Below are positions 25,205 to 26,500 of a DNA stretch of 64,000 nt, piece after piece. Within the stretch, counting starts at the first letter, position 1. Every line of letters begins with the position of its first letter. Both the position numbers and the translations under genes were made by a program. The stretch is from the NCBI GenBank assembly GCA_039027295.1, contig JBCCKS010000005.1, positions 10,043 through 74,042 on the forward strand, written 5' to 3'. The notes below the pieces were generated by a model that was not told where the DNA came from, did not search any database, and saw only the letters and a list, made by a program, of their open reading frames with translations. This stretch comes from Pseudomonadota bacterium (GTDB lineage: Bacteria > Pseudomonadota > Alphaproteobacteria > Micavibrionales > Micavibrionaceae).

Positions 25205-26500
25205 TTAAGCCATAGTTCCTGGGGCGGGTGCAAGCATATCTGCATTTCTCACGCCGTGGTTTGCTGCACCTGCTGCAACTCTTACTACGGACCCATTTGT
25301 TGCAGATCCAAATGCTGCTGTTACGCCTCTACCTGCTGCCATTCCGGCTCTTGCAAAACCAACTGCTGCTGGACCAACAAACCATGATGTAACCTCACCA
25401 CCTGTATGCATAACCTGCGCAAATCGTGATGTAAGGTCTGGCGCGCCCATTAATCCATTTGCAACACCTTCCACTTCTGCTTGCCAGTTTTGTGAAATAT
25501 CTCTATCGGCATAACCGGTATCAATTCCAAATACGCCTGCTGCGCGGCCAAACAAACCGTCTAAGCCATCAGCAACGTTACCAACAACCCAGCTTCCTGT
25601 GTTGAGTGTGCCTTCTACAAATCCATGACCAAATGCATGCACTCCATTACCAATATCACCAAGAATGGTTCTGCCATCATCACCTGCAACAGGTGGATCT
25701 GTTGTAACGGCATCTGGTCCTGGCGCAGAGGCAAGAACAACATTAGGATCACCACTGCCTACGGCATTCGGATCAACATTTGCTTCCTCACCAAAGGCTG
25801 CGCTAGCAGCCACTGTTCCTGCTCCAACTACTGTCAAGCCAGTAGCTATTCTGCCAAAGCGTGTTCCGCCAATAGCATTTAATGTGCCAGAAAAGAAATT
25901 TCCAATTCTGCCTCTCAATCCTGTCGCCGTTGCTGCGGCTCCACCACTACCATTTATATTTACGCCGGTTTGATTTCTTGCCCAAGGAGAGTTTGGGTTA
26001 CCACCACCATTTAAGGTAACGCCTTGCCCTCTATTTAAAAGCCATCTTGCTCCTAAGCCTGTTGCTCCTAATCCTAGTGCGCTAAGCCCAAGACCTGTTG
26101 TAATTCCAATTCCAGCATTAGGGTCGTTTCCAGCATTAGGATCGTTTCCACCATTGGGGTCATTAGGGTCAAAACCGCCATTATTCGCAAAACCTGTTCC
26201 AGGCTCTCCATCAATTCCTTGCATGCCTTGAGCCCACTGGACCATGCCTGCTCCATATCTGCCACCTGTTAATCCAGCAATTAAATTTCCTAAACCTTCT
26301 ATCATCGCGTAGAAGTATTCGAATCCTGCGGCAACTTCTGTTCTAGCACCAGCTTCGGCAAGAATTCTTTGCGCATTTTCTGCTGTTCTTCCTAAAAAGC
26401 CATCAGGGCTACCAAAAACAGCACCTCCTGCGGCTCCAATACCAAGAAGTCCTGCACCCCAGGTACCTACAGACCGGATAACTCCCCAAATTCTTCCCAT
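25205..26500 (-). CDS. hypothetical glycine-rich protein, 431 aa, lysine-free and cysteine-free (cassette gene 1)
   Basis: Own codon-by-codon reading confirms the frame. It has 0 Lys and 0 Cys, small-residue GxxxG/AxxxG runs, GNDPNA repeats and EYFYAMIEGLGNLIAGL. It ends ...LAPAPGTMA. Codons are host-like (AGA, GGA/GGT, GCA, TTA). Confidence 0.6.
   Translation of the reverse strand: MGRIWGVIRSVGTWGAGLLGIGAAGGAVFGSPDGFLGRTAENAQRILAEAGARTEVAAGFEYFYAMIEGLGNLIAGLTGGRYGAGMVQWAQGMQGIDGEPGTGFANNGGFDPNDPNGGNDPNAGNDPNAGIGITTGLGLSALGLGATGLGARWLLNRGQGVTLNGGGNPNSPWARNQTGVNINGSGGAAATATGLRGRIGNFFSGTLNAIGGTRFGRIATGLTVVGAGTVAASAAFGEEANVDPNAVGSGDPNVVLASAPGPDAVTTDPPVAGDDGRTILGDIGNGVHAFGHGFVEGTLNTGSWVVGNVADGLDGLFGRAAGVFGIDTGYADRDISQNWQAEVEGVANGLMGAPDLTSRFAQVMHTGGEVTSWFVGPAAVGFARAGMAAGRGVTAAFGSATNGSVVRVAAGAANHGVRNADMLAPAPGTMA
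26112..26165. repeat. 3 x 18-bp tandem repeat inside the 431-aa gene (encodes GNDPNA-type hexapeptides)
   Basis: ccagcattagggtcgttt / ccagcattaggatcgttt / ccaccattggggtcatta, read directly from the sequence. Confidence 0.85.

What the first reader, a model, noticed from the sequence alone, without database searches (positions are those of the whole stretch)
25205..26500. 431-aa lysine-free glycine-zipper-like protein
Runs of small residues spaced as GxxxG/AxxxG recur through the protein:
- GVIRSVGTWGAGLLGIGAAGGAVFG at the N-terminus
- GIGITTGLGLSALGLGATGLGA
- GLTVVGAGTVAASAAFG
- FVGPAAVGFARAGMAAGRG

They alternate with Asn/Asp/Pro-rich loops. Such glycine-zipper patterns occur in membrane-inserting or pore-forming peptides and toxins. 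There is no cleavable signal peptide, no Lys and no Cys. Inference: this is the membrane-active or self-assembling component of the cassette.
Basis: partly seen in the sequence, partly recalled or inferred. Interest (0 to 1): 0.65.

Follow-up and report, generated by a model that had tools for sequence, protein, structure and literature searches.

The report
Lysine-free orphan protein, conserved three-gene operon
The ORF is a real gene, the first of a three-gene operon that one uncultured group of Alphaproteobacteria keeps between purH and lepA; it belongs to a protein family with no known relatives, it is not a glycine zipper, and in this lineage it and one partner have lost nearly all their lysines for an unknown reason.

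Summary
The 431-aa ORF exists at 25205-26500, on the minus strand. It has no Lys and no Cys, is 22% Gly and 15% Ala, and contains the four quoted stretches. The glycine-zipper reading fails: GxxxG, small-xxx-small and strict zipper motifs are no commoner than in shuffled sequence.

The gene (A) heads an operon with B (183 aa) and C (423 aa, net charge -43). A-(B)-C sits between purH and lepA in the six related genomes or contigs with usable flanks. No library or fold search matched any of the three. Only 15 relatives of A appeared among 1.84 billion representative proteins.

Flanking orthologues are 54-91% identical between genomes; A and C are 34-40%. The family has 0 Cys in 5,457 residues. 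Lysine loss is lineage-specific: A 0 of 431, C 2 of 423, B normal, and about 80% of Arg codons in A and C are AGA.

Membrane insertion is unproven. Loop charges fit a positive-inside four-span topology, but the Gly/Ala stretches are less hydrophobic than every true membrane helix in this window.

Best guess: a weakly anchored envelope complex. Main rival: A and C are exported and B is retained.

The parts
25205..26500 (-). Gene A: 431-aa Gly/Ala-rich protein with no Lys and no Cys (the finding)
   Evidence: ORF and translation. Composition. 15 relatives in 1.84 billion representative proteins. Syntenic orthologues in L002, L003, L038, L040 and L041.
26405..26473 (-). Residues 10-32: N-terminal Gly/Ala stretch, preceded by a basic tail (R3, R9)
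   Evidence: Every family member with an N-terminal Gly/Ala stretch has a preceding tail of +1 to +4 and no acidic residue. Hydrophobicity is weak and not conserved.
26216..26404 (-). Residues 33-95: conserved helical N domain (DGxxG...ARA...FEGFYAxxExxG...TGGxxGxGxxxWA)
   Evidence: Alignment A1. AF2 gives helices 35-50, 55-77 and 84-93, with pLDDT 82-90 over residues 61-90.
26110..26161 (-). 18-nt tandem repeat, 2.9 copies, encoding NDPNAG in the variable linker
   Evidence: Tandem Repeats Finder.
26048..26116 (-). Residues 129-151: second Gly/Ala stretch (AGIGITTGLGLSALGLGATGLGA). Present only in long-form family members.
25850..26047 (-). Residues 152-217: Arg-rich loop with 7 Arg and no Asp or Glu
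   Evidence: Charge table.
25790..25849 (-). Residues 218-237: third Gly/Ala stretch, the most hydrophobic one (19-residue Kyte-Doolittle mean 1.60)
25385..25663 (-). Residues 280-372: conserved helical C domain (HAFGHGF...G(H)xAD...GxDTGYxxRD(L/I)S..W...APDL..F..A.H..G...SW)
   Evidence: Alignments A1 and A2; R333 and G368 are nearly invariant. AF2 gives helices 279-323, 335-351 and 359-397 with pLDDT 71-89.
25208..25384 (-). Residues 373-431: fourth Gly/Ala stretch, then an Arg-bearing tail ending in a Pro-rich C-terminus (..LAPAPGTMA)
   Evidence: In the A family Pro is 15% of the last 10 residues against 2.8% elsewhere.
24631..25182 (-). Gene B: 183 aa. Helical, acidic, normal Lys content (5.5%), one central weakly hydrophobic pair of helices. 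It starts 22 nt after the stop of A.
   Evidence: Orthologues lie directly after A in L003, L005, L038 and L040. Absent in L002 and L041. Alignment A7.
23257..24528 (-). Gene C: 423 aa. Very acidic (net -43), 2 Lys, 0 Cys, no hydrophobic segment.
   Evidence: Orthologues in L002 (33% identity, E 1e-33), L003, L038, L040 and L041.
26688..26717 (-). Upstream block P1 (CGTTAAC-N6-TTTCCATATAATAGGGG), about 195 nt before the ATG. Conserved in four genomes.
   Evidence: Alignment A10.
26563..26592 (-). Promoter-like block P2 (TTGGAA-N18-TATAAT), about 63 nt before the ATG. Conserved in four genomes.
   Evidence: The element TTTYCATATAAT occurs exactly only at P1 and P2 in the 64 kb.

Best explanation
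SHOWN. The ORF is a genuine, vertically inherited gene. It is the first gene of an operon, A (431 aa), B (183 aa) and C (423 aa), that one uncultured clade of Alphaproteobacteria keeps between purH and lepA. A founds a protein family with no detectable relative in any described family or fold. Its architecture is:
- a basic N-tail and a Gly/Ala stretch;
- a conserved helical N domain;
- a variable low-complexity linker, which in long forms such as this one carries two more Gly/Ala stretches around an Arg-rich loop;
- a conserved helical C domain;
- a last Gly/Ala stretch and a Pro-rich C-terminus.

INFERRED (my best guess). A is a weakly anchored envelope protein. The Gly/Ala stretches act as marginal membrane spans or anchors, with the N-terminus inside. 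That places both conserved acidic helical domains on the far (periplasmic) side, and the Arg-rich loop and tail on the cytoplasmic side. A would act as a complex with B (coiled coil plus a hydrophobic hairpin) and with the very acidic C, which could dock on the Arg-rich cytoplasmic parts of A. The biochemical activity is unknown. Only two positions are near-invariant, which points to a structural or binding role more than to an enzyme. The loss of Lys in A and C is a recent, selected, lineage-specific change laid over this conserved module.
For: Real gene and operon:
- Orthologues of A and C, usually with B between them, lie directly after purH and before lepA in L002, L003, L038 and L041; L040 shows A-B-C-lepA and L005 shows A-B.
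- The A-B gap is 22 nt.
- Two upstream promoter-like blocks are conserved in four genomes.
- GC3 is 0.26, the same as the rest of the window.

New family:
- No match in Pfam, NCBIfam, PHROGs, PADLOC, PDB sequence or profile searches.
- No match in Foldseek against PDB or BFVD.
- 15 hits in 1.84 billion representatives. None in JGI metagenome contigs or viral contigs.

Helical two-domain core.

Topology:
- N-tail +2/-0; residues 33-128 net -8; loop 152-217 +7/-0; the remainder from residue 238 is net -12 as a whole, and it ends in an Arg-bearing tail after the fourth stretch.
- Every family member with an N-terminal Gly/Ala stretch has a tail before it of +1 to +4 with no acidic residue.
- Long forms add two hydrophobic stretches, an even number, which preserves the sidedness of both domains.
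- The best A segment scores +2.9 on the crude insertion scale. This is close to the PBP2-like N-terminal anchor (+3.4) and to signal peptides (+1.3, +3.9) of the same window, and better than almost all its soluble proteins.
Against: - Hydrophobicity is marginal. All 11 true membrane proteins in the window score <= -1.4 on the crude 19-residue scale and >= 2.27 on 19-residue Kyte-Doolittle. A reaches only +2.9 and 1.60, and on the Wimley-White octanol scale (-1.1) it sits among soluble proteins.
- By the calibration in PMC6110835, +2 to +4 kcal/mol is the soluble range. My sum is a simplification of that predictor.
- The N-terminal stretch is not conserved as a hydrophobic element. In the closest relative P0018 the best 10-residue Kyte-Doolittle mean is 1.19, and the P0001/P0002/P0004 subgroup has an amphipathic Lys-rich N-terminus instead.
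- This model puts A's domains and C in different compartments. It therefore does not explain why both lost Lys while B did not.
- It also does not explain why all three proteins avoid Cys and end in Pro-rich tails.
- The AF2 models are of low overall confidence (pLDDT 53 and 59).
Confidence: 0.35

Rival explanations
1. A and C are exported, and B is a retained partner or chaperone. They would leave the cell by a non-Sec route, with the flagellar type III apparatus or an unseen T1SS/T4SS as candidates. A then inserts its marginally hydrophobic Gly/Ala segments into a foreign membrane of a host or prey cell, or assembles outside the cell. Lys was purged from the two exported proteins because Lys is a liability at the destination, for example through ubiquitination in a eukaryotic cytosol or through Lys-directed proteases or modification.
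For: - The Lys pattern separates the proteins in just this way. In the window, A has 0 of 431, C has 2 of 423 and B has 10 of 183. In the closest relative L040, C has 0.8% Lys and B 8.0%. B is 4.5-8.9% Lys everywhere.
- Sec-exported proteins of the same window keep normal Lys: SIMPL 8.0%, fasciclin 12.2%, SodC 7.0%. So the loss is not a general periplasm effect.
- Cys is almost absent: 0 in 5,457 residues of A, 1 in 804 of B and 2 in 2,205 of C. From general knowledge, that is usual for proteins secreted unfolded.
- B and C have no N-terminal hydrophobic signal.
- All three end in Pro/Gly/Ala-rich tails: 15-22% Pro in the last 10 residues against 3-5% elsewhere.
- Secreted membrane effectors are known to keep their spans below the threshold for inner-membrane targeting (PMC6110835).
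- Divergence is very fast. A and C are 34-40% identical where flanking orthologues are 54-91%.
- A complete flagellar export gate (FlhA, FliI, FliH, FliF) lies in the window.
Against: - No injectisome, T4SS, T1SS or T6SS gene lies next to the cassette in any of the seven contexts.
- No known secretion signal was recognised.
- The cassette occupies a fixed housekeeping position in every clade member seen. Effectors are usually patchy and mobile.
- A's segments are even less hydrophobic than typical secreted transmembrane effectors (-3 to +2 kcal/mol).
- Relatives with normal Lys content (L002, L041, L003, L038) carry the same module. Lys loss is therefore not tied to the module's basic function.
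- Nothing shows that the organism lives with a eukaryote.
Confidence: 0.25
2. The module is a cytoplasmic self-assembling scaffold. A, B and C would be low-complexity, partly disordered proteins forming a polar or membrane-peripheral matrix or condensate, in the manner of acidic polar organisers. The Gly/Ala stretches would mediate self-association rather than membrane spanning.
For: - More than half of A is predicted with pLDDT < 50 (257 of 431 residues).
- The linkers are variable, Gly/Asn/Pro-rich and prone to repeats.
- C is extremely acidic and has no hydrophobic segment.
- The hydrophobic stretches fall in or near the soluble range.
- No Sec-grade signal is present.
- Divergence is fast with only a few invariant positions.
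Against: - The sharp segregation of charge around each Gly/Ala stretch (+7/-0 against -8 and -12) is not expected for a cytosolic scaffold.
- Total avoidance of Cys is not explained.
- There is no similarity to PopZ-type or any other known scaffold family.
Confidence: 0.15
3. A is a glycine-zipper pore-forming toxin or bacteriocin-like membrane-permeabilising protein, and its neighbours serve as immunity or accessory factors.
For: - The protein is Gly/Ala-rich and Cys-free with several apolar stretches.
- It belongs to an orphan, fast-evolving family.
Against: - There is no zipper periodicity.
- No toxin, colicin or glycine-zipper family or fold matches.
- The locus is fixed and syntenic between purH and lepA in all relatives, with native codon usage and no mobile-element signs.
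- No small polytopic immunity-like protein is present. B is lost in two lineages that keep A and C.
- The apolar stretches that the model relies on (2 and 3) are missing from the short-form family members.
Confidence: 0.05

Closest known systems
Transmembrane glycine zippers (Kim et al. 2005 definition; Pfam Gly-zipper and Rick_17kDa_Anti type domains)
   Same: Apolar stretches rich in Gly and Ala.
   Different: The defining i,i+4 periodicity is not enriched. No Pfam glycine-zipper model matches A or any of its 15 relatives at E <= 1.
Calcyanin (ccyA) GlyZip domain of bacteria that form intracellular amorphous calcium carbonate (PMC8890360)
   Same: An orphan 'dark matter' protein with long Gly-rich apolar regions and a variable other part.
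   Different: Calcyanin has three ~50-aa repeats with strict period-4 Gly/hydrophobic spacing and a central Gly-Pro. A has four short, non-periodic stretches, and its conserved parts are the helical domains, not the Gly-rich stretches. No sequence comparison was possible, because no calcyanin sequence was at hand.
[quoted passage not shown]
   Same: Several weakly hydrophobic segments below the inner-membrane targeting threshold, a small helical protein encoded alongside, and fast evolution.
   Different: No homology. No injectisome or T4SS genes were seen near any copy. The locus is a fixed chromosomal position. A's segments are even less hydrophobic (crude +2.9 to +5.6 against a peak near -1 kcal/mol). 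This is a 'works like' lead only.
Lysine deserts and lysine-poor toxin or effector proteins (PMC10665810, PMC10169902)
   Same: A whole protein of 431 residues without Lys, and a 423-residue partner with 2 Lys, in a genome averaging 6.1% Lys.
   Different: Described bacterial lysine deserts are linked to pupylation in Actinobacteria (abstract seen). From general knowledge, Alphaproteobacteria have no Pup system. No link to ubiquitin or to a host is shown here.

Membership tests
Transmembrane glycine zipper | Excess of (G/A/S)xxxGxxxG or GxxxGxxx(G/S/T) motifs, that is, small residues at i,i+4 | tested here: not met
   11 motifs against 9.7 +/- 3.1 in shuffles. GxxxG 13 against 19.6 +/- 3.5. 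No enrichment within any of the four stretches.
Transmembrane glycine zipper | The motif lies within a segment hydrophobic enough to span a membrane | tested here: inconclusive
   Best segment has a crude insertion sum of +2.9 and 19-residue Kyte-Doolittle mean of 1.60, against <= -1.4 and >= 2.27 for all 11 membrane proteins of the window. The scale is simplified and no DeepTMHMM was available.
Pfam glycine-zipper, toxin or colicin families | Significant HMM match | tested here: not met
   No family at E <= 1 for A. Nothing recurs among the 16 family members scanned. PHROGs and PADLOC gave nothing.
Pore-forming toxin or bacteriocin cassette | Variable or mobile genomic context with a cognate immunity gene | tested here: not met
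   The cassette lies between purH and lepA (fully in five contexts, partly in L040), GC3 equals the genome's, and no immunity-like gene is present.
Sec-exported protein (cleavable signal peptide) | Basic n-region, a strongly hydrophobic h-region of 7-15 residues, and an AxA-type cleavage site | tested here: inconclusive
   The n-region is basic in every member that has the N-terminal stretch. Small residues follow the h-region. The h-region is weak: 10-residue Kyte-Doolittle mean 1.1-2.1 against 2.3-3.9 for the window's own signals. SignalP was not available.
Secreted transmembrane effectors or translocators (T3SS/T4SS) | A cognate secretion system and a recognisable secretion signal or chaperone | not testable with these tools
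   Only flagellar export genes are seen in the 64 kb. The rest of the genome is not available.
Secreted transmembrane effectors or translocators (T3SS/T4SS) | Intermediate hydrophobicity of the transmembrane segments (about -3 to +2 kcal/mol) | tested here: inconclusive
   Crude sums are +2.9 to +5.6, above the published range. The full predictor was not run.
Lysine-desert proteins | A long stretch devoid of Lys, far beyond the expectation from composition | tested here: met
   0 Lys in 431 residues, P = 1.4e-12. Partner C has 2 in 423, P = 9.5e-10.
The new A family (purH-lepA cassette protein) | The conserved N-domain and C-domain motifs, including GxDTGYxxRD(L/I)S and APDL...SW | tested here: met
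   Alignments A1 and A2. phmmer E-values range from 2e-23 to 9e-4.
The new A family (purH-lepA cassette protein) | Position directly downstream of purH, followed by B and/or C and then lepA | tested here: met
   Window, L002, L003, L038, L040 and L041.

The most novel reading that the evidence does not exclude
A and C are exported substrates, and B is their retained chaperone, in a previously unknown delivery or translocon-like module of an uncultured alphaproteobacterial clade. A inserts its sub-threshold Gly/Ala segments into a host or prey membrane. In this lineage both exported proteins were purged of lysine to escape Lys-directed attack at the destination, such as ubiquitination or Lys-specific proteolysis.
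Probability: 0.2. Interest if true: 0.75.

Novelty: categorically new. Interest (0 to 1): 0.45.

Why it matters
As a protein family this is uncharted. Sequence, profile and fold searches tie none of A, B or C to anything described. Yet the module is conserved in position across a whole, uncultured alphaproteobacterial clade, so it presumably does something that the clade needs.

The near-total, selected removal of lysine from two of three co-transcribed proteins runs against the AT-rich mutational bias of the genome. It is a clean natural experiment on why a bacterium would avoid lysine. If the reason is export into a eukaryotic or prey cell, it would reveal a new delivered membrane protein and hint at the lifestyle of the clade. 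If the module is an envelope complex, it is a new component of alphaproteobacterial cell architecture.

'Categorically new' refers here to the absence of any known relative. No new mechanism has been demonstrated.

Tried and rejected
- Word-indexed homology searches, run three times (single protein, full alignment, domain-only alignment), returned nothing or only family members. Low-complexity words swamped the candidate lists.
- The Pfam, NCBIfam, PHROGs and PADLOC libraries gave nothing for A, B or C, for their orthologues, or for all 16 members of the A family.
- PDB sequence and profile searches gave only noise. A 0.12 E-value hit of B to a '16.5 kDa protein' (9yf4) was inspected and rejected.
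- I made two AF2 models, one of the window protein and one of the short-form P0016. Three Foldseek searches found nothing with E < 0.1.
- JGI metagenome contigs gave no relative in a profile-derived scan. My own degenerate DNA pattern for GxDTGYxxRDLS gave 31 loci, and hmmsearch showed that none belongs to the family.
- Two scans of viral contigs found nothing. A phage origin is therefore rejected.
- I tested for an internal duplication between the two halves of A and found none.
- There are no paralogues of A, B or C elsewhere in the window.
- CtrA boxes (TTAA-N7-TTAA) are absent near the cassette and are not enriched in the window.
- No Rfam family matches the 600-nt leader, even at E <= 1.
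- Horizontal transfer does not explain the higher GC of the cassette (0.43-0.49). GC3 is 0.26-0.28 as elsewhere, so the excess comes from Gly and Ala codons.
- A literature search for the SRA runs that carry the family found nothing.
- The organism could not be identified beyond 'uncultured Alphaproteobacteria'.
- The excess of AGA codons is weak evidence on its own, because a few other window genes also use mostly AGA (for example 8 of 9 in ORF 8724-9386).
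Full report
1. The observation

The ORF is real but lies on the minus strand, at 25205..26500, and runs from ATG to stop for 431 aa. It has no Lys and no Cys, with 21.6% Gly and 15.1% Ala. The four quoted stretches start at residues 6, 130, 221 and 374. Between them lie Asn/Asp/Pro-rich stretches, one of which is an 18-nt tandem repeat (2.9 copies) encoding NDPNAG.

The claimed GxxxG/AxxxG spacing does not hold up.
- GxxxG occurs 13 times, against 19.6 +/- 3.5 in shuffles of the same composition.
- Small-xxx-small occurs 65 times, against 68.5 +/- 5.0.
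- Within each stretch the i,i+4 spacing is not enriched.
- Strict Kim-type zipper motifs number 11, against 9.7 +/- 3.1.
The stretches are Gly/Ala-rich and apolar, but they are not zippers.

2. A real gene in a conserved operon

Gene B (183 aa, 24631..25182) starts 22 nt after the stop of A. Gene C (423 aa, 23257..24528) follows, and lepA begins 46 nt later. purH ends about 600 nt upstream of A.

The higher GC of the three genes (0.43-0.49) comes from Gly and Ala codons. Their GC3 (0.26-0.28) matches the rest of the window, so they are native genes.

The word-indexed protein search found nothing. A full phmmer scan of 1.84 billion representative proteins found 15 relatives, with best E 2e-23. 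Nearly all come from single short contigs of assembled sequencing runs, plus one MAG labelled 'uncultured Alphaproteobacteria bacterium'.

Every context that could be fetched shows the same arrangement:
- L002: purH - A - C - lepA.
- L041: purH - A - C - lepA.
- L003: purH - A - B - C - three other genes - lepA.
- L038: galU - chpT - che genes - purH - A - B - C - four other genes - lepA.
- L040, the closest relative: A - B - C - lepA.
- L005: A - B.

These genomes range from 39% to 55% GC, and their LepA is 81-91% identical to the window's.

Two upstream promoter-like blocks are conserved in four genomes although the rest of the spacer has diverged. One of them was also found by the consensus scan, as TTGGAA-N18-TATAAT.

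B is absent in L002 and L041. In those two genomes A has a different, Lys-rich amphipathic N-terminus.

3. Anatomy of A

The family alignment shows two conserved modules.
- The N domain covers about residues 33-95.
- The C domain covers about residues 280-372. It carries the motifs HAFGHGF, G(H)xAD, GxDTGYxxRD(L/I)S and APDL...SW.
R333 and G368 are nearly invariant.

The linker between the domains is hypervariable. Short forms (270-300 aa) have a Thr/Pro/Ser-rich linker. Long forms, including this one, carry two extra Gly/Ala stretches around a basic loop.

AlphaFold2 with the 16-sequence alignment predicts an all-helical protein. It is confident only in the two conserved modules (pLDDT 71-90), with mean pLDDT 53. 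A short-form relative gave the same picture, with mean pLDDT 59.

4. Nothing known resembles it

The following searches all found nothing meaningful for A, B or C:
- Pfam, NCBIfam, PHROGs and PADLOC, including a Pfam scan of all 16 A-family members and scans of orthologues of B and C.
- PDB by sequence and by profile.
- Foldseek against PDB and BFVD.
- JGI metagenome contigs.
- Viral contigs.

There is no internal duplication in A and no paralogue in the window.

5. Membrane or not?

For membrane insertion:
- The charges around the Gly/Ala stretches follow the positive-inside rule. The N-tail is +2/-0, residues 33-128 are net -8, and the loop 152-217 is +7/-0. The remainder from residue 238 is net -12 as a whole and ends in an Arg-bearing tail after the fourth stretch.
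- Every family member with an N-terminal Gly/Ala stretch has a basic, acid-free tail before it.
- Long forms add an even number of stretches, which keeps both domains on the same side.

Against membrane insertion:
- I calibrated against the window's own proteins with a simplified 19-residue insertion scale. All 11 real membrane proteins score <= -1.4, with 19-residue Kyte-Doolittle mean >= 2.27. The best segment of A scores +2.9 and 1.60.
- That places A next to signal peptides and a PBP2-like N-terminal anchor, and just ahead of soluble proteins.
- The N-terminal stretch is much weaker than the window's Sec signals and is not conserved as a hydrophobic element.
- Published calibration puts single-span helices at -2 to -5 kcal/mol, secreted transmembrane effectors near -1, and soluble proteins at +2 to +4 (PMC6110835).

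Membrane association is therefore plausible, but classical integration is not established.

6. Unusual evolutionary features

(a) Speed. Orthologues flanking the cassette are 54-91% identical between the window and L002. A is 40% identical over half its length, and C is 34%. Within the families, A is 24-50% identical, B 13-27% and C 16-34%.

(b) Cysteine avoidance. There are 0 Cys in 5,457 residues of A proteins, 1 in 804 of B and 2 in 2,205 of C.

(c) C-termini. All three proteins end in Pro/Gly/Ala-rich tails in all genomes. Pro makes up 15-22% of the last 10 residues, against 3-5% elsewhere.

(d) Lysine loss.
- The window's A has 0 Lys in 431 residues (P = 1.4e-12) and C has 2 in 423 (P = 9.5e-10). 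B has a normal 5.5%.
- Relatives of A carry up to 8.1% Lys. In the closest relative (L040), A has 3.6%, C only 0.8% and B 8.0%.
- The loss is therefore recent. It is specific to this sub-lineage and to two of the three proteins.
- At five of the 21 alignment columns where at least three relatives have Lys, the window protein has Arg.
- AGA accounts for 17 of 21 Arg codons in A and 19 of 24 in C, against 28% in the other 52 ORFs (Fisher P = 3e-12). AGA is one transition away from AAA. This is only supportive, because a few other genes in the window also favour AGA.
- In a 39% GC genome, mutation pressure favours AAA. Losing Lys therefore implies selection.
- Sec-exported proteins of the same window keep 7-12% Lys.

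7. Interpretation

My best single model (0.35) is a weakly anchored envelope complex. A would be anchored N-in by marginal Gly/Ala spans. Both acidic helical domains would face the periplasm, and the Arg-rich loop and tail would face the cytoplasm, where the very acidic C could dock. B would be a coiled-coil partner with a hydrophobic hairpin. This fits the charge pattern and the housekeeping-like synteny. It does not explain why A and C, in different compartments, both lost Lys.

The main rival (0.25) does explain that. In it A and C are exported by a non-Sec route and B is retained. This also fits the universal Cys avoidance, the sub-threshold hydrophobicity, the shared C-terminal tails and the fast divergence. 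It lacks any visible secretion system, recognisable signal or evidence of a host.

8. Comparison with the known

The protein is not a member of the glycine-zipper families, because their defining periodicity and HMM matches were tested and not met.

It is not calcyanin-like, because it lacks the long period-4 GlyZip repeats.

It resembles secreted transmembrane effectors only in its sub-threshold hydrophobicity.

It qualifies descriptively as a lysine desert. The described bacterial cases concern pupylating bacteria, which from general knowledge Alphaproteobacteria are not.

9. Verdict

The composition is confirmed, the glycine-zipper inference is refuted, and the cassette is confirmed and extended.

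This is an orphan, clade-restricted, fast-evolving three-gene module of unknown function, with a striking lineage-specific purge of lysine. It is moderately interesting: new as a family, with no mechanism demonstrated.

Noticed in passing
window 26688-26717 and 26563-26592 (minus strand); L040, L002 and L041 upstream regions: Two short blocks upstream of gene A are conserved in four genomes although the rest of the spacer is not. They are CGTTAAC-N6-TTTCCATATAATAGGGG (about -195) and TTGnAA-N18-TATAAT (about -63). Both share TTTYCATATAAT, which occurs exactly only at these two places in the 64 kb. A third block, CAAATTTGCATTTTT, is shared by three genomes. The blocks may be tandem promoters or a regulator site. 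No Rfam family matches the leader.
   Followed up: partly
window 27044-27058 and 27096-27110; 27012-27031: The last 15 nt of purH (CATTTCCGCCACTAA on the coding strand) are duplicated 52 nt downstream, flanking a 37-nt stretch. A perfect 20-bp palindrome, AGTGTTTCACGTGAAACACT, follows and is unique in the window. This may be a small insertion scar plus a terminator or operator.
   Followed up: partly
window 50430-52529 (minus strand): A 699-aa Gln/Asn/Pro-rich ORF with only 1.4% Lys, no Cys and no Pfam match. It lies directly after flhF (53437-54474) and an flhG/MinD-like gene (52581-53432) in the flagellar cluster. It could be a FliK-like hook-length protein or a polar landmark protein.
   Followed up: partly
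window 23257-24528 and 25205-26500: AGA makes up about 80% of Arg codons in genes A and C (36 of 45), against 28% in the other 52 ORFs. lepA next door uses AGA for 2 of 34.
   Followed up: yes
L002 10646-10797 and L041 2374-2691: Gene B is missing in two related genomes that keep A and C. In the same genomes A has a Lys-rich amphipathic N-terminal extension instead of the Gly/Ala N-terminus.
   Followed up: partly
L002 7207-8839: purH is split into two overlapping ORFs in the related MAG. This is either a frameshift (an assembly error) or a pseudogene.
   Followed up: no
window 18297-19193 and 20560-21342 (minus strand): Two more ORFs have no family match. The 298-aa one is conserved in L002 (60% identity). 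The 260-aa one has no counterpart in the syntenic L002 stretch, which carries three other small ORFs there instead.
   Followed up: no
window 19305-19781: A short (158 aa) Cu/Zn superoxide dismutase-like protein matches only the C-terminal part of the Pfam model. It is just 38.5% identical to its syntenic L002 orthologue, far below its neighbours.
   Followed up: no
L003 3709-5168; L038 12475-15570: In the GC-richer relatives, an Inhibitor_I78 gene and PDZ-domain or weakly SH3-like genes sit between gene C and lepA. PDZ and SH3 domains bind C-terminal or Pro-rich peptides, and A, B and C all end in Pro-rich tails. This may be coincidence.
   Followed up: no
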